DNA from: a virus
Lineage: Duplodnaviria; Heunggongvirae; Uroviricota; Caudoviricetes
Reading direction: 5' to 3' (one strand)
IMG/VR virus record: IMGVR_UViG_3300000301_000054
Length of the DNA: 27,306 nt
Below are positions 1-19,131 of the stretch, in pieces. Under the pieces are notes generated by a model. The model searched no databases. It had not been told where the DNA came from and saw nothing but the letters and a program-made list of their open reading frames with translations. Made by a program: the position numbers and the translations under genes. The first letter of the stretch is position 1, and every line of letters starts with the position of its first letter.

Positions 1-339
1 CCTTTTCCCTGTATGGACCGAAGGCTGACCGTAGGGGTGTTACGGGGGGTAAAATCAGGAGTTGAATAAATACGAAAAAGGAGGCGACACCCCTCCTTCC
101 CTCCCCACTTATACATACCTGGCTTCTTCGCTATACATGTTGTGTTTTATTCGTGTTTTATCTGTCTCAACCTCTCTATGGGCGTTAATGCACACTCCTT
201 CCAGAACGTTCTATACGGCGACTAATTCTGTTGGTGAATTGGGTGTGTTGTTTTCTCTGTCGGTGTCTGTGGTTTCGTTCGTTTTGCGGTGGTTCTTCTA
301 TGGGGTGTTCTCGTCGTTTTGGTGATTGTTCTTCTCCGT

Positions 340-735
340 GTATGGAGTAATGGCAGGTGGGCGATTCCTTTCGTTATTGTGTTTGAGTTGTTTGTCTGGA
401 GTGTGTGAAAGGCTTTTGTAGTTATTCGTGTATTGGGTAATGGCGTTTCCCGTGATTGTTATGTTTCGTGTCTTTTGGGATTGAGAGAAACCTTGCGGTT
501 ACAGGCTTCGTTGGGGTTTCAGCGGTTCAGGTGTTTCTTCGCTGTTTGGGTAATGGCGTGTCGTGGGTATCGCGCGTATGAATGTTTTCGGATTGCCTGT
601 GAAAGTTAGGTTGGTTGTCCGGTAGCCTGGGGAGAAGAGGTGGGTCTTTTCGGTAGCCTGGGGAGAAGAGGTGGGTCTTTTCGGTAGCCTGCCATAAAGA
701 GGTTGGTTGTTTTTGGTAATGGCATATGTGTTATT
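340..735. repeat. GT-rich block with a periodic GGTAATGGC-type motif (about 4 copies at roughly 90-170 bp spacing)
   Basis: Motif copies near 349, 437, 549 and 715; plus strand strongly G+T rich, almost no A-runs; no credible ORF. Confidence 0.5.
620..692. repeat. Tandem direct repeat, 31-bp unit CGGTAGCCTGGGGAGAAGAGGTGGGTCTTTT x about 2.3
   Basis: Two perfect copies at 620..650 and 651..681, third partial copy 682..692. Confidence 0.85.
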
Positions 736-1192
736 TAGTTGTTTTGTTANNNNNNNNNNNNNNNNNNNNNNNNNNNNNNNNNNNNNNNNNNNNNNNNNNN
801 NNNNNNNNNNNNNNNNNNNNNNNNNNNNNNNNNNNNNNNNNNNNNNNNNNNNNNNNNNNNNNNNNNNNNNNNNNNNNNNNNNNNNNNNNNNNNNNNNNNN
901 NNNNNNNNNNNNNNNNNNNNNNNNNNNNNNNNNNNNNNNNNNNNNNNNNNNNNNNNAGAATTACGGGTATAAGCAGTGATGTGTGAAAACGTCAATTTTT
1001 TAGACCAAATCGGGTGAAAGCGTTGATGTTTCGTTGATCTGTTATTCAGTTGTTTTCTTATTGGTATAAACAACTGTAACCTATTGATATTTAAGGATGT
1101 GATTCCAGGCATGGAAGGGGAGTAGTGGCGATCAACGGATTCTTATAGAAAAGAATCAAATTGTGACCGCCATTATCAATGAGTTGCAACCG

Positions 1193-9486: not shown

Positions 9487-10111
9487 TGGATGACTCCTTT
9501 ACGAAGCAGTTCAGCAATACTTACGCATATCTCTGCGCCTCTAATCAGCCCCGGAACGTTCTTGTTTGGCCCAACTTCACCATCAACAAAATCAATCATC
9601 GCGTTACGAGCCATATCCACGCCCTGCGCACGTACTTCAGCCAGAAAAGCATCGGTGGCTGGAGTTTCTATGCACTGCATTTCATGCAATGTCTGCATGT
9701 CCATAAAATCCCCGTCAGGCTCTGTGATAGTGGCGTTATATGCCGAGTAAATTTTTGACGCTTCATGTGNNNNNNNNNNNNNNNNNNNNNNNNNNNNNNN
9801 NNNNNNNNNNNNNNNNNNNNNNNNNNNNNNNNNNNNNNNNNNNNNNNNNNNNNCGCAGCCTTAGATCGCAATGCCACATTCTCCGCCGCTAATGCGTCTC
9901 TCTGCGCCCGCAACTTCTCAATTTCGGCAGCCATGTAGTAACCAACCATAGCGAAGACGGCAAAAGAGTTGTCTGCCTCATCAGGCGACACTGAGGCCAT
10001 TAGCAGGCCATCGTAAAAATCGTGACTCCCATTGGTGATCGCCACCGCATAGGAGTCGTGGTTCTCGCGCTTGTGAATGAGAACTACGGGATTTTCGATT
10101 TTGTTACTCAT
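9483..10111 (-). CDS. Hypothetical phage early protein (interrupted by N run 9770..9853)
   Basis: N-terminal segment from ATG at 10111; C-terminal segment ends at 9483 overlapping the next start; coiled-coil EIEKLRAQRDALAAENVALRSKAA. Confidence 0.45.
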
Positions 10112-10248
10112 GTGTTTTTCTCTTCTTTGCTGTTACATAAGCACTACCAAGTGCTGGTTATTTTCACAAATAAGAAAAGGTAGAAAACAATTTATTTAAG
10201 GCCACAACTTATGGCCTTTATTTATTCATGCCGAAGGATTTGTAGCGT

Positions 10249-10629
10249 CTAATTGCCGGATAAAATGGGGTGAGGTGCTTGCCAGTAGGCTCCACCGGTC
10301 CATGTGAACCCCATGCGAATAAGAGTGTTTATTGCGGCTTTGGTAGACTCTGATTCGACACTGACTTTTCGAAACTCTTGAACCTCTTTAGCCAACCTGT
10401 ATGTAATTGTGCAGGGGACGATTGCAGCCCAGCCTTTCTCATGACTGTTAATGACCATCTGGATGTGACCATCCAGAATAGGTTGATTAGGCATGTTATT
10501 GAAAATGTCTGCCTGTTTTTGAATGTGAAGAAAAAGCCTTGCCAGCTCCATTTGCTCACTACGAGACAAGGGATTATCAAGAGGGCTTTTTGCAAAAGCG
10601 GCTATACGCTGTGCGTCAATGCCAAACAT
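10249..10629 (-). CDS. Hypothetical phage protein (126 aa)
   Basis: Start overlaps the stop of the upstream gene at 10629. Confidence 0.45.
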   Translation of the reverse strand: MFGIDAQRIAAFAKSPLDNPLSRSEQMELARLFLHIQKQADIFNNMPNQPILDGHIQMVINSHEKGWAAIVPCTITYRLAKEVQEFRKVSVESESTKAAINTLIRMGFTWTGGAYWQAPHPILSGN

Positions 10630-11414
10630 CAGCGCACCTCACCATCTTTATGGCTGGAGTTAACTTCCGCCATTAAATGTCCGACGTAATCGACAAGAGA
10701 GCCACCTGGTGGAATCTGGCATTCCTCAACTAACTGGAAGTAGATATCCGCTGCATTACGTGTATTACTACCCTCGCATATTCTTTCTTCCCGAAGTGCA
10801 TGAAGCTCGTTGATCAAACGGTCACACTCTCCGTTACGCTGATCCACAACGGCCTCAAGCTCTGCGACGCGTTCACCTGGCGTCTTACCTTCTTTGTGTT
10901 GGATGNNNNNNNNNNNNNNNNNNNNNNNNNNNNNNNNNNNNNNNNNNNNNNNNNNNNNNNNNNNNNNNNNNNNNNNNNNNNNNNNNNNNNNNNNNNNNNC
11001 GCCAATTGCAGGGACGTTGTAATCCAGCTCAAGGTAGTTTTTGGCACCGCTGCGGACGAACTCACCCGCGAACATGGTGGCGAACATCGCAGAGGCCACT
11101 TCGCCGTTGAAAAGTGACTCCAGATCTAACGGAGTCCCGGCAGCAATAGCCTCTTTTGCTGTATCCATTGCATCCATGAACCGATCAAACTCACTAGCGC
11201 GCTTTTCCAGGTCTTTCCATTGCTCGCTCCAACGTTTGGCAACGAAGTCTATGAATGTTTTCGCGGATTCATCAAAATTCCCCTCAAACTTAACGATGCC
11301 TTTATCAATAATGATCTGGCCTACCGCATCCTCTGCATAACCTTTCAATGTAAACTTGAAAGGAAAATCGGAATGTCCTGTGACGTTAAAATGCTCTAAC
11401 TGGAGGTTGCTCAT
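10629..11414 (-). CDS. Hypothetical phage protein, coiled-coil C-terminal part (interrupted by N run 10906..10999)
   Basis: 261-codon ORF across the gap. Confidence 0.5.
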   Translation of the reverse strand: MSNLQLEHFNVTGHSDFPFKFTLKGYAEDAVGQIIIDKGIVKFEGNFDESAKTFIDFVAKRWSEQWKDLEKRASEFDRFMDAMDTAKEAIAAGTPLDLESLFNGEVASAMFATMFAGEFVRSGAKNYLELDYNVPAIGXXXXXXXXXXXXXXXXXXXXXXXXXXXXXXXXIQHKEGKTPGERVAELEAVVDQRNGECDRLINELHALREERICEGSNTRNAADIYFQLVEECQIPPGGSLVDYVGHLMAEVNSSHKDGEVR

Positions 11415-11475
11415 GTGTTTTTCTCTTATCGTTTAGTTACTACATTCTTACACAAATTAAGTAAGCATTTACCTA

Positions 11476-12095
11476 TCATTTAACGCGTTTGAAAACGTAT
11501 ACGCTGACTGTGATCCCGGTATCTTCAAACTCGTTGGTAAACGACTTCCCTCTGGCATAAACGTAATTATCCATCGTCATCCAGCTCAGGATTGGCGCAG
11601 TGCCCGGCAATACTGCTACAAGACGCCCGCCGACTTTCAGATGCCCCAGCGCAGCCAGCGTGTGCTCTCTATGACGACCAAGCGAGTACGGCGGGTTCAT
11701 AACGATTTTGTCGAACTGATAACCTGCGTTGTCCTCAGACCACTTTATGAAGTCGCAGCAAATCGTGTTCGTATACCCTTTTCCACGCAGGATATCAGCG
11801 AAGAGAGGTGCGATTTCTATGCAGGTAACATCTTCCAGATCGGCGTTAATATAGGCCAGAAGATCCCCACGTCCGGCTTGAGGCTCAAGCAGCTTCTCAC
11901 CAGGCTTCAATTCAGTGGCTCTGGCAACGTACTCAGCAATCAAGCGTGGGGTAGGGTAGAACTGGTGTGATTTTGTATCCGGTATTAAACCGGTAGCCAC
12001 AATCGTATTTAGCGTATGGCCGATGTCATACGGGAACTGCCAGTGCTTTTTCTCCTGCACGCCGCCAATGAAGCTCAGTGTGCGCTCAAGCTCTT
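11476..12095 (-). CDS. N6-adenine DNA methyltransferase catalytic domain (gamma-type motif order); 5' end lost in N run 12096..12220
   Basis: FYPTP (motif X), LEPQAGRGDLL (SAM-binding motif I), IVMNPPYS (motif IV NPPY); reading frame stays open upstream into the gap. Confidence 0.6.
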
Positions 12096-12509
12096 NNNNN
12101 NNNNNNNNNNNNNNNNNNNNNNNNNNNNNNNNNNNNNNNNNNNNNNNNNNNNNNNNNNNNNNNNNNNNNNNNNNNNNNNNNNNNNNNNNNNNNNNNNNNN
12201 NNNNNNNNNNNNNNNNNNNNTGTCTTTGCTCAATCGCCCGTCACGAAGCGCAGTGCGAACCGGCACGGAGATCGTCTTCTGGATTAACCCGAACTGCTTT
12301 GGTGCCCGTGTTTTTGGCGCAGTTCGGCATGGCGCGGGAATTGCAGCAGGCATACTGTAAGCCAGCACCTCATTCAACTTCCAGGCCACGTCAGGATGTA
12401 TTTCAAAGTGAACGTTGCCGTTNNNNNNNNNNNNNNNNNNNNNNNNNNNNNNNNNNNNNNNNNNNNNNNNNNNNNNNNNNNNNNNNNNNNNNNNNNNNNN
12501 NNNNNNNNN

Positions 12510-13320
12510 ACATCTTCACGCGCATCAGATTTCCATCGACGTTCATCCAGTCACCGGTCTGGCAGTCGTTTGCCCGATACGCAGCTGATAGCACCTCAGC
12601 AGTGCGGTTGATGGTAATAAATTCTTTGTGCGCGAAGAAATGAAGCAAGACACGCAGATCGTCGATGTAGTCCTCTTTGCGATAGTTCACGCTAACGCTG
12701 TCCCGCCAGAAATCAGAAATGCAGTCAGCGATTATCAGCCGCTCGCTGAAACCGTTTGTCTTATTTGTCTTGTGCGCAGGACTCAGCGCCTTAAACAAGC
12801 CATACACGCGCTCAGAGAGATATTTGTGCCTGTCATTCAGCAAATTAAGCATCGTGGGTATGACCGTTTCTGCTTTGAACTCCGGTACACCAACGAACTC
12901 TTTAACCTTCATCTGGTAGCCGGTTCTGTCAGTTTTGATGACTTCCTGTTTGCCCTCTATAAACTGCTCGCGCCACTCATCTCGACGGGAAGCTGGCATG
13001 ATCAGCAAAACGTTAGTCATGTCCGTGACCTTCCTCCAGTACTCGGCCCAAATATTCTGTTTCACCCATTCCAGATCGACTTTATCCAACCAACCTCGAT
13101 TTAAACGCGAGCGATCTTCATCTGGTCGATGGTTTAGTCTCAGCAGGCGATTAATCATGTTGTGGCGTTCGTCGCCATAAACGAAGTCGTGAACCTGATA
13201 CATGAAGGCGATCTCTTTCTCGCACTCGGCCACAATTTCGTGGATGACGTTCATTTCCTGCCGATAGTCGATAGCAGTGTTTGAGTTGGCATCGTCGATG
13301 ATGGAAAGGGCTGTATTCAT
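12510..13320 (-). CDS. Hypothetical protein (at least 270 aa), truncated by N run 12423..12509; immediately upstream of the methyltransferase
   Basis: Long ORF from ATG at 13320 running into the gap; no motif I can assign. Confidence 0.5.
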
Positions 13321-13423
13321 AATTGCACCATTAAGAAGTGATTTGTTTAATGGTGCAATTATTTCAAAAATGAAAAGGTACTAAATAGAAATAAACAGGC
13401 AATCCTTCAAATAAAGGCATTGG

Positions 13424-14095
13424 CTAATCATACTTGGAGGTATTTATCACCAGAATTTTGTTTGTATAAATTTTCTTAATATCCCATGTGACATTACCGG
13501 AATACCATTGACCGTTATATACTTGGTTTCCAGTTGCACCTGTCATTGTTACATAGACAGGTCTGTCGTAATCGGTTCGTCTATAGTTATATACTCCAAC
13601 CATAGCAGGCATTACCGCACATGGATACCCCATATCTATTGTAAATTGAGGGTCAGAAATAGTGATAAGTTTCGCATCAAGGGGCATCATCTCACCGTGA
13701 TACACCATTGCGCCTGCGCTGTTATACATGGCAATGCCATAGCCAGAATGTGGTAACACCATATCAGAAAAAGCATAAACTGTTATTGTTCCGGGGCTAC
13801 CATTTACCTGATGCAATCTGAGAGCATTGTATCCGTTACTATGCTCATGAATAAACATCATGTTCGCCTTATTACTGCTTTTTATGAAAAAAAAACATGA
13901 TTTGTTTGATGGGATTGATGTTTGAAAAACAGAACCTTTAGATGTAGACATTGTCCCTTTATTAATCAGATTTTGCGGAGTAAATTCTGGACTCATCCAC
14001 AAACTTCCATCTGATTGAGTAATTGACATCCCGAACATAATTATCCCCAGTATGTGTATATGTAAGAACCAAGCCCCGTATATAAATTTGACCAA
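13424..14095 (-). CDS. AT-rich hypothetical protein (moron-like); N-terminal hydrophobic segment, Tyr/Gly/Asn-rich body
   Basis: 223-aa ORF in a markedly AT-richer segment; further ORF fragments (14201..14435) broken by N runs 14133..14200 and 14320..14380 may belong to the same or a second gene. Confidence 0.4.
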   Translation of the reverse strand: MVKFIYGAWFLHIHILGIIMFGMSITQSDGSLWMSPEFTPQNLINKGTMSTSKGSVFQTSIPSNKSCFFFIKSSNKANMMFIHEHSNGYNALRLHQVNGSPGTITVYAFSDMVLPHSGYGIAMYNSAGAMVYHGEMMPLDAKLITISDPQFTIDMGYPCAVMPAMVGVYNYRRTDYDRPVYVTMTGATGNQVYNGQWYSGNVTWDIKKIYTNKILVINTSKYD

Positions 14096-14463
14096 CTAAC
14101 CGTATTTCCATTAATAGTAACTGTTGGAACAGNNNNNNNNNNNNNNNNNNNNNNNNNNNNNNNNNNNNNNNNNNNNNNNNNNNNNNNNNNNNNNNNNNNN
14201 AAATTAATGTAGTTGTCGTTGTTAAGAGGCATCAATGACCACACGGCATGTAGCGATTTACCCGGTGGCGGATTGGAGTACGTCTTAGAGCCTGATGACG
14301 CAGTAAATCGATCAAGAAANNNNNNNNNNNNNNNNNNNNNNNNNNNNNNNNNNNNNNNNNNNNNNNNNNNNNNNNNNNNNGGAAGCCAGTAACGTTAATT
14401 CCTTTATTGTTGTAAATCCCTGTACCGTATGCCATTTTTCATCCTTGTTTTTTATCAACACAA

Positions 14464-14487
14464 TATGGCCGATCATGCGGCCATATC
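14464..14487 (-). promoter_or_regulatory. Perfect palindrome ATATGGCCG-ATCATG-CGGCCATAT in the 55-nt spacer between the gene ending at 14491 and the ATG at 14435
   Basis: 9-bp arms, 6-nt centre; followed on the minus strand by AAGGA SD and ATG. Confidence 0.5.
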
Positions 14488-14490
14488 AGA

Positions 14491-15060
14491 TCAATTAGAG
14501 CTTTGAAAGGCTTTGTGTGGCTGTGTTGCGAGGTTATGTCGATGGCTTAACTCACGCATCATGTCTTCAAGCCGACTCTTTGTGTCGTCGAGTTGGTCGG
14601 CCATTGCTCCCAAAAGCTGACGAACGGCCATCGGATCATCGCTGTTTAGTGATGGCATTTTATAACCCGCCTGAGAAGACATAAGATTGAACGCAGACAT
14701 CAACATCGTTAGAGAGGATTTAAGCCCAGCAATTTCACGATCTTTGCTGGCAATAATCGCCTCACTCTTGTTAGTGTCATCAGTTCGTTGAGTCTCGCTC
14801 ACCATATCCAAAGTCGCCTGCAACTTATCAGCGCGCTCTTTTTCAGCAAGATAATGAACACCGAAATGATGTGCTAAAGCTACAACCTGAGTTGGCTCTT
14901 CAAAGGTGGACTCAAAATTAAGTGCTGTAACCACTCTCTCAAATATGGAAACGTCTTCTATTCCTCGAAGAATGGCTAACATTTTGACCAGTTCATTAGC
15001 ATCCATTTCTTCGAATAAGGCGTTTTGTTCATCAGCTATCGCTTTGCATTTCTTGCACAT
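14491..15060 (-). CDS. Hypothetical protein (189 aa)
   Basis: Leader carries the palindromic element 15079..15091 and an AGGA SD. Confidence 0.5.
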   Translation of the reverse strand: MCKKCKAIADEQNALFEEMDANELVKMLAILRGIEDVSIFERVVTALNFESTFEEPTQVVALAHHFGVHYLAEKERADKLQATLDMVSETQRTDDTNKSEAIIASKDREIAGLKSSLTMLMSAFNLMSSQAGYKMPSLNSDDPMAVRQLLGAMADQLDDTKSRLEDMMRELSHRHNLATQPHKAFQSSN

Positions 15061-15078
15061 GTGTTTTTCCTAATGCTT

Positions 15079-15091
15079 AAACAAGTTGTTT
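15079..15091 (-). promoter_or_regulatory. Palindromic leader element AAACAA-G-TTGTTT, about 20 nt upstream of the ATG at 15060
   Basis: Perfect 13-bp palindrome; adjacent GTTGTTTTCTTATTGG also occurs at 1049..1064. Confidence 0.5.
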
Positions 15092-15176
15092 TCTTATTGG
15101 CTTTATTGTGATGTGGCATAAAAGGGGAGCAAGCTAAACGTAAAGGTGCAAACTCTCTATTTCGGTCAACGAAACA

Positions 15177-15196
15177 CAAGGGCCATTTGGCCCTTG
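15177..15196 (-). terminator. Hairpin CAAGGGCC-ATTT-GGCCCTTG downstream of the small membrane ORF
   Basis: 8-bp stem; partially U-rich tract follows on the minus strand. Confidence 0.4.
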
Positions 15197-15202
15197 TCAT
15201 TA

Positions 15203-15358
15203 ACACGTTGCTTTACGGACTAGCGGATAAGCGAAGTAGATCGCCAGACCAATGAGGACGCCATCAGAAATGACAGACATCATCTTTCCCGTAAAATCCA
15301 CCAACACCGCCATCACCAGAAGAGCAATGACGATCACAAGCCGGAATCTCTCAAGCAT
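15203..15358 (-). CDS. Candidate small hydrophobic protein (about 51 aa, MLERFRLVIVIALLVMAVLV...), start overlapping the stop of the TerB-like gene
   Basis: ATG at 15356..15358 overlaps the TerB-like gene stop (15358..15360) by 1 nt; two hydrophobic stretches. Confidence 0.35.
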
Positions 15359-15783
15359 TAGAGATAAGCATCCAGTGACAACTGAAGCGCCTGGGCGATC
15401 TTTTTAAGTGCCTGCTCTTCTTGTTCACCAATGCCGTCCTGATCGGCAATATCAAGGCACAGACACAGTACATCTACTGCATCATTAGTCCCGGCCACAT
15501 CAGCCAGCTCACGTAAAGCCTGGGCATTAGCGCGGCGCGGTGAGGCTTCGTATTGAGCACGGATATTGGCGCTCATTTGGGCAATCTCACCAGCAAACGG
15601 AGAAAACGCAGGCAGAGCTGCAATTGTTTTCTCAAGAATGGAAATTTCCTTTGCGTCGCATGTGCCATCGGCATAGGAGATCATGTACGCGCCCCACACG
15701 GTGGCTTCAACCGCATCTCGGTTCTCCATTTTTTTGACCTCGATAACAGCTTTACGAGTTTTCTTTTTGAATAAACCTAACAT
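15358..15783 (-). CDS. TerB-like (tellurite-resistance TerB fold) protein
   Basis: Duplicated ADG-type motifs MISYADGTCDAKEISILE and LDIADQDGIGEQEEQALKKIAQALQL typical of TerB-like domains; palindromic element and AAGGAA SD in leader. Confidence 0.55.
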   Translation of the reverse strand: MLGLFKKKTRKAVIEVKKMENRDAVEATVWGAYMISYADGTCDAKEISILEKTIAALPAFSPFAGEIAQMSANIRAQYEASPRRANAQALRELADVAGTNDAVDVLCLCLDIADQDGIGEQEEQALKKIAQALQLSLDAYL

Positions 15784-15806
15784 GTGCTTTCCTTTTGTTA
15801 TTTGTT

Positions 15807-15821
15807 AAAACAAGTTGTTTT
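15807..15821 (-). promoter_or_regulatory. Palindromic leader element AAAACAA-G-TTGTTTT, about 24 nt upstream of the TerB-like ATG
   Basis: Perfect 15-bp palindrome. Confidence 0.5.
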
Positions 15822-15876
15822 CTAGTTACATGAATTGCTTACGAAAAGACGGTCAATGCATATGCACTAACAACCG

Positions 15877-16065
15877 TCAGAAATAACCAAGTACCGAACC
15901 AACTGGAAAAACAAAAATCCCAACAACACGAGCCAAGGTCATACCAGCCTGAAACTGGAGATCGCCAGAGCAAACAAGTTTTATAATGTTCGATACCCAA
16001 CCGGCGGCCATGAGGGCAAGAATTGCCAGCCAAATTTTTCCAAAGTGATTTGAAAACCAGTTCAT
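15877..16065 (-). CDS. Small membrane protein (62 aa, two hydrophobic helices)
   Basis: MNWFSNHFGKIWLAILALMAAGWV...; ATG overlaps the stop of the upstream small gene (ATGA). Confidence 0.4.
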   Translation of the reverse strand: MNWFSNHFGKIWLAILALMAAGWVSNIIKLVCSGDLQFQAGMTLARVVGIFVFPVGSVLGYF

Positions 16066-16280
16066 ACAACCGCCTTAGTCACAACATGATCCTGAGTAAC
16101 TGGATGAACTTGAGGTATCGCATCCACCGTCATCCCATCCAGAGTGACAGGACGCTCTACTGGAGTGGTGGTAATTGTCGTCGACGGAGGTGTGGTGATG
16201 GATGAATCCGGCATCAAAAGGCTCTGGCCGGCTGGAACGGCTACCGTCGCCAGTGAAACTATAATGAGAACGTAGGCCAT
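16062..16280 (-). CDS. Small secreted or lipoprotein-like protein (72 aa from the internal ATG; signal-peptide-like N-terminus, Thr/Pro-rich middle)
   Basis: MAYVLIIVSLATVAVPAGQS...; AAAGAGG SD 9 nt upstream of the ATG at 16280; stop overlaps the next start. Confidence 0.4.
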   Translation of the reverse strand: MAYVLIIVSLATVAVPAGQSLLMPDSSITTPPSTTITTTPVERPVTLDGMTVDAIPQVHPVTQDHVVTKAVV

Positions 16281-16569
16281 TGGTTTCAGCCTCTTTCTTT
16301 GAAAATTTTCCATTCGAACTGTCCTTGTTGTTTTTCTCCTTCACTAAAGGCCGTGCATTTTTCGCTTGGTGTGAAGAACCAGAGGTAACAATCGCCCCCA
16401 CGTTCGCAACAACTGACGCTTGCTTATCTAAACGTTCATTCAGCAACCGAACGGTAGTCTCCAGTTCATCAAGACGTGACAGAACACGACCGCTAAATAA
16501 TTCGGCCAAAATTTGACGTAGTGAACGAGGACGTTTAGTTGCAGAAGTGAAATAGGTTTGACGTGCCAT
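16075..16569 (-). CDS. Hypothetical protein; only the N-terminal half (coiled-coil LSRLDELETTVRLLNERLDKQ) looks protein-like
   Basis: The 3' half overlaps the better-supported 16062..16280 gene in another frame; true end uncertain. Confidence 0.3.
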   Translation of the reverse strand: MARQTYFTSATKRPRSLRQILAELFSGRVLSRLDELETTVRLLNERLDKQASVVANVGAIVTSGSSHQAKNARPLVKEKNNKDSSNGKFSKKEAETNGLRSHYSFTGDGSRSSRPEPFDAGFIHHHTSVDDNYHHSSRASCHSGWDDGGCDTSSSSSYSGSCCD

Positions 16570-16714
16570 GTGGACTCCATCCAGTGTCAGAAAGAGTTGC
16601 GGCTGGCGATTGCCAGCCGCCTTTCTCGTTCCATCCTGGAACTGTGTCTTACCGACACATTGTCATCCTGACGCCGATAAGATACATGATTTAATATGAT
16701 AGGTAAACACTTAC

Positions 16715-17308
16715 TTACCACTTGTTGTAAATAAAACCAATGTCTTTCTTGTGAGGCGTATCGGCTGCGGAAAAAGCTGCGATCTTCGCGAGTCGATCAC
16801 ATATTTCATTTTCACGATGCCCGGCGTGACCTTTAACCCACTTCCAGCGAACATTATGTCGACTTGCGGCCTCATCCAGACGTTTCCACAGATCAACATT
16901 CTTTACCGGTTTTTTATCAGAAGTCATCCATCCATTACGTTTCCACCATTTCATCCACTGTGTCATGCCGTTTTTCAGATACTGGCTATCAGAGTACAAA
17001 ATAACGTTGCATGGATATTTCAAACGCTCCAGCCCGATAAGTGCGCCCATCATCTCCATGCGGTTATTGGTGGTGCTATGAAAACCATCTGAGAACTCGC
17101 GTTCCTCACCACGATACTGGAGAACGATACCGTAACCACCCGGGCCACCCGGATTTTTAAGGCAAGAGCCATCACTGAAGATTTTCACGGTTTTAAGCTG
17201 GGGATTGAACTCTACGACAGGCGTTGTGGGATTGGTGCGGGGAGAATTTTTGTTTTTGGCTTTTTTGCGAGTTTTTGCTTGCGATCGGGCTGGTGTCTTC
17301 GTCGTCAT
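16715..17308 (-). CDS. rnhA: RnhA-type ribonuclease H with a basic N-terminal extension
   Basis: [65 protein letters not shown] align along E. coli RNase HI; ATG at 17308 with AGGAG 6 nt upstream preferred over the ORF-track start at 17359. Confidence 0.8.
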
Positions 17309-17966
17309 ATAAACTCCTGAATCAAGCGCCGCGCCGATTTTTTCCTCGCGCGTGCGCACACGCGTGCGTGTTAATAATTATTAAAATAAACAAATTACTT
17401 CCCAGAACAGGTTTTTATAAACCTGAACTGAACGAACGAAGTGAGTGAAGTTCACCTCGAACGAAGTGAGAGGTTGTCTTTTCAGGTAATACTCTCCCAG
17501 GGAGGTGAGTACAAAATTTCCTCACCAACCTGGTCGTTTCATAACCTGAAAAGTTATGACCTAAGTCTACTGCCAGCTTAGGCTTGGGAAGTTATGGATG
17601 ACAGCACCCCAGAACCGAGATCTTCCCACACTTTATGAAGGGGAGTACTGGATTCAACCTCTCGAAACACTCCAGACTCGACAATCATAAAGTGACCCTT
17701 CTNNNNNNNNNNNNNNNNNNNNNNNNNNNNNNNNNNNNNNNNNNNNNNNNNNNNNNNNNNNNNNNNNNNNNNNNNNNNNNNNNNNNNTTTGGTTCCCCCT
17801 TCCCCAACCCCTAAACGGTGCCGGTTCTACGCTGGTAGTGAGCTTTTTTAAACCTGACGCCAGTGACGCTTACCCCCACCCATCAGGTCGAGTCTCCAGT
17901 CTACGACTGGAAACTATCAGATCTTAGCACTTACAATTCACTTTATAAATAGTTTGTACTTATCTA

Positions 17967-18221
17967 TCATTGTGATTGATTATTTTCTCGACCATGTAGT
18001 TGAACATTCAAGGCAAACACCTCATTGATCAACTCACCTAAAAGCTGTTCAACAAGTTCGCGATGCTCGCCAAGATGCAAGCACTTAATTGCCCACTCGT
18101 ACAAGTTGAAAGCCTGCTCACGATCTTTCATCATTTCACGAGCCTGGGCCAGAAAATCGCTCTCTACGAGCGCAACGACATTAGTCGGGTATGACATGTT
18201 GGTTTCCTTAAAGTGGTTCAT
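17967..18221 (-). CDS. Hypothetical small phage protein (84 aa)
   Basis: ORF only. Confidence 0.4.
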   Translation of the reverse strand: MNHFKETNMSYPTNVVALVESDFLAQAREMMKDREQAFNLYEWAIKCLHLGEHRELVEQLLGELINEVFALNVQLHGRENNQSQ

Positions 18222-18418
18222 AAAATCGATTTTAAAGCGTCTGGGAAGGGGTTCTAGTGGATTCTGTAGTGGTGTTCAGGTCTGGGAGTCTCTGATATAA
18301 AACAGCCTGCTTCCGTATATTAATAATTAATATGTAGTTATTTATATATACAGAAGCAGGCTAATTACAGACGCCAGAACAAACTAAGCAGCCTTCTTTG
18401 ATGGTCTTTTTTTCCTGA

Positions 18419-19131
18419 TCACATTCGCAGGATCATANNNNNNNNNNNNNNNNNNNNNNNNNNNNNNNNNNNNNNNNNNNNNNNNNNNNNNNNNNNNNNN
18501 NNNNNNNNNNNNNNNNNNNNNNNNNNNNNNNNNNNNNNNNNNNNNNNNNNNNNNNNNNNNNNNNNNNNNNNNNNNNNNNNNNNNNNNNNNNNNNNNNNGA
18601 GCATACTGCCACCGGGGTTGATGTTTACTTCTACCTGACCCAAATTGACGTCAGGCTCGACAAACGCTACGCGGCCACCAGACAGAATAATCGTCTCATT
18701 CGCACACTCTGTTGCACGCTCATACCACTTTGTATCGAGGGATTGAGGAATTAGCATCACTGTTGTAACTCCGCGAGCCTNNNNNNNNNNNNNNNNNNNN
18801 NNNNNNNNNNNNNNNNNNNNNNNNNNNNNNNNNNNNNNNNNNNNNNNNNNNNNNNNNNNNNNNNNNNNNNATCAATCCAGGGGGAGATTTTGGAGTAGGG
18901 TGGATTGAGGAAGGCAATTGTACCTGGCTGTCCCCATTCAGATTTCAAAGCATCACGCTCAACGCCTATGAAATTAGGCAGCTTCGCATTGTCCTTGTTG
19001 CAGGCAACGTCAACATCAAATGTCACTCCAAGATAACGTTGAATGGCAGAAAACAGCCAGTCAGGTGTTCTCCAGAGGTCACGAAGAGAGTTGTCGCGCT
19101 TTCGCTGTTTGATTTTTTCGGCTGCAATCAT
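18419..19131 (-). CDS. Phage Dam-family N6-adenine DNA methyltransferase (interrupted by N runs 18438..18598 and 18781..18870)
   Basis: WRTPDWLF, DVACNKDNAK and NPPYS match the phage Dam (N-6-adenine methyltransferase) family as recalled. Confidence 0.6.

What the first reader, a model, noticed from the sequence alone, without database searches (positions are those of the whole stretch)
13424..14487. AT-rich moron-like insert encoding a probable exported beta-rich protein
Base composition drops sharply relative to neighbours. The 223-aa product has an N-terminal hydrophobic segment and a Tyr/Gly/Asn/Thr-rich body typical of surface or secreted beta-sandwich proteins (lectin-, toxin- or exclusion-type). 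Two N runs fragment the upstream part, and a perfect 24-bp palindrome sits in its leader region. Such compositionally foreign genes in phage early regions are often host-interaction factors.
Basis: partly seen in the sequence, partly recalled or inferred. Interest (0 to 1): 0.5.

Follow-up and report, generated by a model that had tools for sequence, protein, structure and literature searches.

The report
Phage tail-tip receptor-binding gene pair
The flagged "exported protein" gene is really two small genes that most likely build the receptor-recognising tip of this plasmid-prophage's tail, a known kind of module sitting far from the other tail genes.

Summary
The window is part of an SSU5-like E. 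coli phage-plasmid (99.7% identical to about 110-kb plasmids and to phage Cyrano). The 223-aa ORF is an over-extension. The minus strand carries two coupled genes: a 93-aa gene (14435→14041) and a 204-aa gene (14038→13424). The N runs stand for only 2 and 14 nt in relatives, so the frame breaks are artefacts. The "hydrophobic N-terminus" is an out-of-frame read of the 93-aa gene's end, and neither protein has a signal peptide.

Both proteins belong to PHROG 557 and 425, labelled "outer membrane" and "membrane-associated" protein. In Drexlerviridae, Nonagvirus and Stx phages this pair lies right after the central tail fibre gene. [quoted passage not shown] The phi24B homologue gp54 is found in virions.

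Sister plasmids without this roughly 1-kb insert carry a distant pair beside their tail genes. Plasmids with the insert lack that pair, yet their J proteins end in the same motif.

Verdict: a displaced, horizontally acquired tail-tip RBP module, not an exported moron. The receptor is unknown; BamA or BtuB are candidates.

The parts
14041..14435 (-). Gene A, the small subunit. It is 93 aa in relatives: MAYGTGIYNNKG...SYIYTYWG. ATG at 14435-14433, TAA at 14043-14041. The window coordinates are inflated by two N runs that stand for 2 and 14 nt.
   Evidence: In pEC332_01 and Cyrano the gene is an intact 282-nt CDS. PHROG 557 'outer membrane protein', E = 4.7e-29. AF2 model of the 98%-identical P0024: six-strand beta-sandwich, pLDDT 83.6. 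SD AAGGA at 14446-14442. dN/dS 0.08 against PhiR41_1.
13424..14038 (-). Gene B, the large 'hand-like' subunit, 204 aa: MFGMSITQSDGSLW...INTSKYD. ATG at 14038-14036, TAG at 13426-13424. It is translationally coupled to gene A (GGGGA TAA TT ATG).
14039..14095 (-). It starts at TTG 14095 and overlaps the 3' end of gene A in another frame.
   Evidence: There is no SD upstream of the TTG. This stretch is the only hydrophobic segment (19-aa Kyte-Doolittle mean 1.71).
14133..14200 (.). N run of 68 that replaces 2 nt (GT) in relatives.
14320..14380 (.). N run of 61 that replaces 14 nt (AAAAATAGGAGTAA) in relatives.
14463..14486 (-). Hairpin with a 9-bp perfect stem and 6-nt loop. It lies between the stop of the upstream 189-aa gene (14491) and the gene A ribosome-binding site, and it is part of the inserted segment. 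It has no U-tract, and its role is unknown (attenuator, RNA-stability element or binding site).
   Evidence: Present in pEC332_01, absent upstream of the JenP2 and Stx-phage copies. Not called as a terminator.
13379..14511 (.). Extent of the segment that is inserted or replaced relative to the empty site of the sister phage-plasmid pEcFELIX526.1. About 1.02 kb of real sequence stands against about 100 nt there.

Best explanation
The region encodes a two-subunit terminal receptor-binding module of the phage-plasmid's own virion. The 204-aa 'hand-like' beta protein, probably together with the 93-aa beta-sandwich protein, is made during lytic growth. It docks non-covalently onto the C-terminal tip of the trimeric J-type central tail fibre and recognises an outer-membrane protein of the next host. 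The cassette was acquired horizontally. Its closest relatives are in virulent Nonagvirus phages (83% aa) and in Stx phages (62%). It inserted between two backbone genes far from the tail operon, and it functionally replaces the distant homologous pair that sister SSU5-like plasmids carry between the tail-fibre and lysis genes.

Shown here: gene structure, family membership, fold, synteny in other phages, the insertion, the reciprocal presence and absence of the two pairs, the shared fibre C-terminal motif, and purifying selection.

Inferred: virion incorporation in this element, docking on J, and receptor binding. The receptor is not established. Similarity along the whole protein, including the variable C-terminal third, is to the JenP/Stx type. 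BamA is the receptor of phi24B, but the role of its gp54 as RBP is still only proposed. Similarity to the BtuB type is lower.
For: (1) Anatomy. There are two coupled intact genes with good SDs, under purifying selection (dN/dS 0.08-0.10) although the allele is far more diverged than its flank (dS 0.65-0.84 against 0.10).

(2) Family. The proteins match PHROG 557 and PHROG 425. The same families hold the pairs of the FhuA phage PeterMerian and of Enterobacter plasmid p205A1.

(3) Synteny. The pair lies immediately after the gpJ or central-fibre gene in JenP2, tonijn, FritzSarasin/Bas04, KarlJaspers/Bas06 and Stx phage P13374. Bas04 and Bas06 are BtuB-dependent (BASEL S5 table). In both of them a lipobox lipoprotein precedes the pair, like the exclusion lipoproteins of the LptD locus.

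(5) Literature. Matusiak 2025 (PMC12309495) modelled the phi24B homologues at the tail-spike tip. Bubenchikov 2026 found phi24B gp54 (204 aa) in the virion proteome and saw extra density at the needle tip.

(6) Docking motif. The fibre proteins of Cyrano, pEcFELIX526.1, p205A1, Bas04/06, JenP2, PeterMerian, Stx gp69 and the J protein next to a fused 315-aa relative all end in ..(I/V)x(V/I)(Y/K/R)DxN(G/N)xLxVxIGR(L/I)-like sequences. The J of LptD-type Oekolampad does not.

(7) Complementarity. pEcFELIX526.1 and p205A1 carry an 84-aa plus 188/202-aa pair (with a lipoprotein in p205A1) between the tail fibre and holin genes. pEcFELIX526.1 also has an empty site where this cassette sits. Cassette-bearing Cyrano and pM-64-197 go from J to tail fibre to holin with no such pair. 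Of 246 plasmids with any homologue, at most 11 have two places.

(8) Expression. The genes are not expressed as morons in LF82.
Confidence: 0.7

Rival explanations
1. Tail-tip assembly factor or adaptor rather than receptor binder. The pair chaperones or caps the J tip, while receptor specificity lies in J itself or in the long tail fibre.
For: [quoted passage not shown] The phi24B small subunit was not detected in virions and gp54 was of low abundance. Cyrano-type plasmids also carry a large P1 S-like tail fibre.
Against: The only strong structural neighbour is a protein solved in complex with its receptor. Locus alleles track receptor use in the BASEL and 2026 screens. The C-terminal third diverges sharply between receptor classes (26% against 50-57% in the N-terminal part). 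That pattern is expected of a binding surface, not of a chaperone.
Confidence: 0.12
2. One reading: a moron expressed by the lysogen, whose beta-rich product is exported or surface-associated and acts as an exclusion, adhesion or toxin-like factor.
For: It is an AT-richer roughly 1-kb insert between backbone genes. It lies away from the structural genes. Database labels read 'outer membrane / membrane-associated protein', and PHROG 425 is filed under 'moron'. In Stx phages it sits next to lom.
Against: There is no signal peptide, lipobox or transmembrane segment once the start is corrected. No PADLOC hit. It is not among the lysogeny-expressed genes of Cyrano. It is present in virulent phages. 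In the loci where exclusion is known, it is done by a separate lipoprotein, which is missing here. Membrane-affinity estimates for homologues are low.
Confidence: 0.07
3. Functionless passenger: a recombination relic of an RBP module with no role in this element.
For: Ectopic position. No adjacent exclusion lipoprotein. No promoter-like site.
Against: Both ORFs are intact in more than 100 plasmids. dN/dS is about 0.1 across a pair of alleles with dS 0.65-0.84. SDs and coupling are conserved. Plasmids carrying it have lost the canonical pair.
Confidence: 0.05

Closest known systems
Stx phage phi24B gp55/gp54 (YP_009168169 / YP_009168170). Homologues in P13374: an unannotated 92-aa ORF plus gp70.
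   Same: The same two families and the same order and coupling. 62-63% aa identity along the full length, including the C-terminal third. The preceding fibre ends in the same motif. gp54 is a virion protein proposed as the BamA-binding tip.
   Different: In the Stx phages the pair lies directly after the needle gene, on the same strand, in a podovirus, and is followed by lom. Here it is tens of kb from J in a siphovirus phage-plasmid.
Nonagvirus JenP1/JenP2 gp22/gp21
   Same: The closest relatives: 83% and 76% aa, about 80% nt over gene B. A two-gene cassette without a lipoprotein, transcribed opposite to the neighbouring genes.
   Different: They are in virulent phages, adjacent to gpJ. The upstream region differs and lacks the hairpin. 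I found no published receptor for them.
BtuB-type 'bona fide RBP locus' of Drexlerviridae (FritzSarasin bas04_0023-25, KarlJaspers bas06_0024-26)
   Same: Same families (39-43% and 51-55% aa) and the same J C-terminal motif.
   Different: They have a third gene, a lipobox lipoprotein that is presumably the exclusion factor. The C-terminal third of the large subunit is only 26% identical, so BtuB specificity cannot be transferred to this cassette.
LptD-binding RBP of Oekolampad / Rtp44 (DUF6453, PHROG 1265; PDB 9rpt) with exclusion lipoprotein Rtp45
   Different: It is a single chain of about 320 aa rather than 93 + 204. It is below the Pfam threshold for the window protein. The J C-terminus is different. 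Its receptor is known, whereas here it is not.
Canonical pair of other SSU5-like phage-plasmids (p205A1: 84 aa + 202 aa + lipoprotein; pEcFELIX526.1: 84 aa + 188 aa)
   Same: Same PHROGs. The J C-terminus is identical in pEcFELIX526.1 and near-identical in p205A1. Presumably the same job.
   Different: Only 26-29% identity. It lies between the tail fibre and holin genes, and where one is present the other is usually absent.
T5 pb5 (oad) with Llp
   Same: It works alike: a monomeric RBP attached non-covalently to the tip of the central fibre, encoded away from the main tail genes (established knowledge; cited).
   Different: No sequence or fold relationship was found. Here the module has two subunits and no lipoprotein.

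Membership tests
Two-subunit tail-tip RBP module (PHROG 557 + PHROG 425; BASEL 'bona fide RBP locus') | An all-beta protein of about 200 aa matching PHROG 425 | tested here: met
   E = 2.2e-72 over residues 1-204. AF2 pLDDT 93.8, all strands.
Two-subunit tail-tip RBP module (PHROG 557 + PHROG 425; BASEL 'bona fide RBP locus') | A beta-sandwich protein of about 90 aa (PHROG 557) encoded immediately upstream and coupled | tested here: met
   E = 4.7e-29. TAA-TT-ATG junction with GGGGA. Model pLDDT 83.6.
Two-subunit tail-tip RBP module (PHROG 557 + PHROG 425; BASEL 'bona fide RBP locus') | Location directly downstream of the gpJ or central-fibre gene | tested here: not met
   In Cyrano, J is at 17.7-22.4 kb and the cassette at 81.9-82.8 kb. 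The same holds in pM-64-197. There is no J in the window.
Two-subunit tail-tip RBP module (PHROG 557 + PHROG 425; BASEL 'bona fide RBP locus') | A central fibre in the same genome ending in the shared C-terminal motif (..VYDxNxxLRVRIGRL) | tested here: met
   Met in near-identical replicons (Cyrano, pM-64-197). It cannot be checked in the window itself.
Two-subunit tail-tip RBP module (PHROG 557 + PHROG 425; BASEL 'bona fide RBP locus') | Protein present in the virion | not testable with these tools
   Only the literature on phi24B gp54 is available.
Two-subunit tail-tip RBP module (PHROG 557 + PHROG 425; BASEL 'bona fide RBP locus') | Binds an outer-membrane protein receptor that determines host range | not testable with these tools
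   Correlative evidence in BASEL and the 2026 screens. Direct evidence exists only for the DUF6453 relative.
Two-subunit tail-tip RBP module (PHROG 557 + PHROG 425; BASEL 'bona fide RBP locus') | An adjacent cognate superinfection-exclusion lipoprotein (frequent, not universal) | tested here: not met
   The upstream gene is a 189-aa non-lipoprotein (PHROG 5508). The lipoprotein is also absent in JenP2 and the Stx phages.
DUF6453 / PHROG 1265 LptD-binding RBP (Rtp44, RBP_Oeko) | Pfam DUF6453 above the gathering score | tested here: not met
   15.4 bits against a cut-off of 25. hhalign probability 0.9%.
DUF6453 / PHROG 1265 LptD-binding RBP (Rtp44, RBP_Oeko) | Fold of 9rpt chain C | tested here: met
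DUF6453 / PHROG 1265 LptD-binding RBP (Rtp44, RBP_Oeko) | A single chain of about 310-320 aa | tested here: not met
   Two genes of 93 + 204 aa. Fused 315-aa relatives exist next to GpJ elsewhere.
Moron (autonomously expressed lysogenic-conversion gene) | Transcribed in the lysogen well above the prophage background | tested here: not met
   CYRAN_88/89 score 7.6 and 11.4 against J at 12.5. They are not among the genes at least 5-fold above background (PMC9928086).
Moron (autonomously expressed lysogenic-conversion gene) | Own promoter and terminator | tested here: inconclusive
   There are no sigma-70-like sites in 13200-14700 and no terminator-like site on the minus strand around the cassette. 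A hairpin without a U-tract lies upstream.
Moron (autonomously expressed lysogenic-conversion gene) | An insert of deviant composition between backbone genes | tested here: met
   Empty site in pEcFELIX526.1. GC 38.7% against 46.0%.
Sec- or lipoprotein-exported protein | An N-terminal signal peptide or lipobox | tested here: not met
   There is no hydrophobic N-terminus in either protein. The only such stretch is the spurious extension.
Peptidase C39 (RefSeq name of WP_000467662.1) | A match to a C39 peptidase model | tested here: not met
   No such Pfam or NCBIfam hit at E up to 1.

The most novel reading that the evidence does not exclude
SSU5-like phage-plasmids change receptor specificity by capturing a complete RBP cassette from unrelated phages (the virulent Nonagvirus or Stx-podovirus lineage) at an ectopic site in their early or accessory region. 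The captured RBP plugs in trans onto an unchanged J tip through a universal C-terminal docking motif, after which the native pair next to the tail genes is lost. If the receptor is the one used by phi24B, this would place BamA-targeting on a widespread E. coli plasmid-prophage.
Probability: 0.4. Interest if true: 0.55.

Novelty: new member of a known kind. Interest (0 to 1): 0.35.

Why it matters
Correct annotation matters here. About 150 complete E. coli genomes and many phages carry these genes under misleading names: 'outer membrane protein', 'membrane-associated protein' and 'C39 peptidase'. If the reading is right, the host range of a common family of E. coli plasmid-prophages is set by a 1-kb plug-in cassette that is unlinked to the tail genes. 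Some of these elements carry resistance genes in the literature (mBio 2022, listed but not read). Tools that look for RBPs only near tail genes would miss this cassette. The shared fibre C-terminal motif across siphoviruses, Stx podoviruses and phage-plasmids suggests a general docking interface that could be used to retarget phages. It is not a new kind of system: the module has been proposed before and is partly supported experimentally.

Tried and rejected
- Sequence searches of the PDB with both proteins and with a 58-sequence profile found nothing meaningful.
- NCBIfam and PADLOC gave no hits.
- The Pfam DUF6453 hit is below threshold. hhalign of the family profile against RBP_Oeko was not significant, so I do not file the protein under DUF6453.
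- The idea that 93 + 204 aa is a split form of a 315-aa protein rests on modest profile hits to the N-termini of fused relatives (single-comparison E from 1e-5 to 2e-3; BLASTP 0.024) and on their position next to GpJ. It is plausible but not proven.
- The promoter scan found none, and the only terminator-like site lies on the opposite strand inside the upstream gene.
- A BtuB assignment was considered and set aside, because the C-terminal third is only 26% identical to the BtuB phages.
- Literature searches for a JenP1/2 receptor and for PhiR41_1 gave nothing useful.
- The Sp5 gene-knockout paper does not report on the homologues.

Full report
WHAT THE WINDOW IS. The 1.3 kb around the finding is 99.7% identical to about 110-kb E. 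coli plasmids. It matches 150 of 5,426 complete genomes, almost always on plasmids. It is 99.1% identical to phage Cyrano and to CMS-2020a. These are SSU5-like phage-plasmids; Cyrano is pLF82 of E. coli LF82 (PMC9928086). All genes around the finding lie on the minus strand.

CHECKING THE OBSERVATION. An alignment with pEC332_01 and Cyrano shows that the 68-N and 61-N runs stand for only 2 nt (GT) and 14 nt (AAAAATAGGAGTAA). Every N run of the window that I could compare is longer than what it replaces. The frame breaks seen in the window are therefore artefacts of the N runs.

In the relatives the stretch holds two intact genes. The first is a 282-nt gene for a 93-aa protein. The second is a 615-nt gene for a 204-aa protein. 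In window coordinates these are 14435→14041 and 14038→13424. The junction reads GGGGA-TAA-TT-ATG, which indicates translational coupling, and gene A has an AAGGA Shine-Dalgarno.

The true proteins have no signal peptide, lipobox or transmembrane segment. Without the Ns the region is 38.7% GC against 46.0% for the window, about 2 SD low. The 27-29% in the raw profile is an N artefact. The 'perfect 24-bp palindrome' is a 9-bp stem with a 6-nt loop at 14463-14486. The Tyr/Gly/Asn/Thr-rich, beta-rich character is real.

IT IS AN INSERT. The sister plasmid pEcFELIX526.1 has the same backbone, but the DUF4942 gene and the 189-aa gene are separated by only 141 nt. Homology to the window breaks at about 13379 and resumes at about 14512. 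The cassette, with its flanking spacers and the hairpin, is therefore about 1.0 kb of extra DNA.

WHAT THE PROTEINS ARE. The 204-aa protein matches PHROG 425 ('membrane associated protein', E = 2.2e-72). It matches PHROG 1265 more weakly (2.6e-6) and DUF6453 at 15.4 bits, below threshold. The 93-aa protein matches PHROG 557 ('outer membrane protein', 4.7e-29). NCBIfam, PADLOC and PDB sequence searches give nothing. The RefSeq label 'C39 peptidase' is not reproduced by any scan.

The family is small: 72 clusters at 50% identity among 1.8 billion proteins.

In other phages the pair sits immediately after the gene for the central tail fibre. I saw this in Nonagvirus JenP2, Warwickvirus tonijn and FritzSarasin/Bas04, Hanrivervirus KarlJaspers/Bas06 and Stx phage P13374, where the 92-aa ORF is unannotated. 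This position is the 'bona fide RBP locus' that the BASEL paper and a 2026 preprint link to terminal-receptor specificity. Bas04 and Bas06 use BtuB. In both, a lipobox lipoprotein precedes the pair. This mirrors the LptD-type locus of Oekolampad and Rtp, which holds an RBP plus the exclusion lipoprotein Rtp45. The FhuA phage PeterMerian has a 103 + 197-aa pair of the same PHROGs. The family therefore spans several receptor specificities.

LITERATURE ON DIRECT HOMOLOGUES. Matusiak et al. 2025 modelled the phi24B proteins annotated as 'outer membrane protein' and 'membrane associated protein' as an Ig-like plus 'hand-like' cap on the tail-spike tip. They predicted low membrane affinity for them. 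Bubenchikov et al. 2026 detected phi24B gp54 (204 aa) in the virion proteome and saw extra density at the needle tip. They proposed that gp54, alone or with gp55, is the BamA binder, and said this still needs proof. The window's proteins are 62% and 63% identical to the Stx-phage pair.

A SHARED DOCKING END. The following proteins all end in closely related sequences:
- the J proteins of Cyrano, pEcFELIX526.1 and p205A1
- the J proteins of Bas04, Bas06, tonijn, JenP2 and PeterMerian
- the needle protein of Stx phage P13374
- the GpJ next to a fused 315-aa relative

Examples are ...RIDVYDDNNVLRVRIGRL...ISVKDSNGVLRVQIGRITGSW and ...KIEVYDQNGRLAVRIGRLR. The J of LptD-type Oekolampad ends differently. 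This agrees with the 2026 preprint's remark that the GpJ tip co-varies with the locus-encoded RBP.

RECIPROCAL PATTERN IN PHAGE-PLASMIDS. pEcFELIX526.1 and Enterobacter p205A1 carry a distant pair of the same PHROGs (26-29% identity) between the tail fibre and holin genes. In p205A1 a lipoprotein is included. Cyrano and pM-64-197 carry the ectopic cassette and run from J to tail fibre to holin without such a pair. Among 246 plasmids with any homologue, at most 11 have two places. A J C-terminus covering the last 32 residues is found in both groups.

SELECTION AND EXCHANGE. Between pEC332_01 and PhiR41_1 the cassette has dS 0.65-0.84 with dN/dS 0.08-0.10, whereas the neighbouring gene has dS 0.10. 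The locus is therefore constrained but swapped as an allele, as expected for host-range genes. The window's large subunit is evenly similar to JenP2 (80/83/85% in its thirds) and to the Stx type (60/61/64%). Against the BtuB phages it falls from 50-57% in the N-terminal part to 26% in the C-terminal third. I therefore do not transfer BtuB specificity to it. BamA, through the phi24B link, is the better but unproven candidate.

EXPRESSION. In LF82 grown in LB, CYRAN_88/89 score 7.6 and 11.4. That is like J (12.5) and the tail fibre (9.6). They are not among the 13 Cyrano genes at least 5-fold above background. This argues against a lysogeny-expressed moron. No promoter-like site was found around the cassette, so it is probably read through from upstream. 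The hairpin could modulate that read-through, which is inference only.

CONCLUSION. The most likely reading (0.7) is a horizontally acquired, ectopically placed two-subunit tail-tip receptor-binding module that serves the element's own virion. The rivals are less well supported: an assembly factor (0.12), an exported moron (0.07) and a relic (0.05). The module type is already described, so this is a new member in an unusual position. Its main value is in correcting the annotation and in showing that RBP cassettes can act unlinked from the tail genes.

WEAK POINTS. J is outside the window. No virion or binding data exist for any SSU5-like phage. The RBP role of the PHROG 425/557 pair itself rests on correlation, modelling, one proteome and a fold match to a related solved RBP.

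Noticed in passing
window 13319-13362: A perfect 16-bp inverted repeat (ATAATTGCACCATTAA, 12 nt, TTAATGGTGCAATTAT) has a 3' arm on the minus strand that runs into the ATG of the DUF4942 gene. In pEcFELIX526.1 the stem is kept with a two-sided change (G..C becomes A..T). This suggests a conserved RNA or DNA structure over that gene's translation start.
   Followed up: partly
window, all N runs compared (9770-18598): Each N run (61-161 N) replaces a much shorter stretch (2-81 nt) in the 98-99% identical plasmid pEC332_01. N-run length therefore carries no information, and it shifts reading frames throughout the window.
   Followed up: yes
window 1-750: A G/T-rich non-coding stretch (GC skew up to +0.47, AT skew down to -0.55). 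It has a 31-bp tandem repeat (620-707, 2.3-2.8 copies) and by eye several copies of a G(G/A)GTAATGGC-like motif. This looks like an iteron or partition-site array.
   Followed up: no
L001 4125-5023 against L016 1625-2526: The cassette alleles of pEC332_01 and PhiR41_1 differ about seven-fold more at synonymous sites than the adjacent 189-aa gene (dS 0.65-0.84 against 0.10). This indicates allele replacement by recombination inside an otherwise near-identical backbone.
   Followed up: partly
L017 395-6948; proteins P0082, P0084, P0089, P0092: Single-chain relatives of about 315 aa have an N-terminal 80 aa that weakly resembles the 93-aa protein, while the rest matches the 204-aa family (E about 1e-42 to 1e-46). 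P0082 overlaps the end of a 1,869-aa GpJ-like gene whose product ends in the same C-terminal motif. This suggests that the two-gene form is a split, or the one-gene form a fusion, of one RBP.
   Followed up: partly
L001 4125-4739 (WP_000467662.1): RefSeq names this protein 'cysteine peptidase family C39 domain-containing protein' in some plasmids and 'hypothetical' in others. No C39 match was found in Pfam or NCBIfam at E up to 1.
   Followed up: yes
L004 5717-5995 (Stx phage P13374): The 92-aa partner gene (TTG start) is not annotated in this RefSeq phage record, although it is 63% identical to the window's small subunit. It is probably missed in many Stx-phage annotations.
   Followed up: partly
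L001 7312-7975: rnhA is marked as frameshifted in pEC332_01 but is intact in Cyrano and pEcFELIX526.1. The state of the window's copy was not checked.
   Followed up: no
L008 43137-46576 (Cyrano): The phage-plasmid carries genes annotated as dimethylbenzimidazole phosphoribosyltransferase and cobalamin synthetase. This is only a curiosity, given that relatives of the cassette are tied to the cobalamin transporter BtuB.
   Followed up: no
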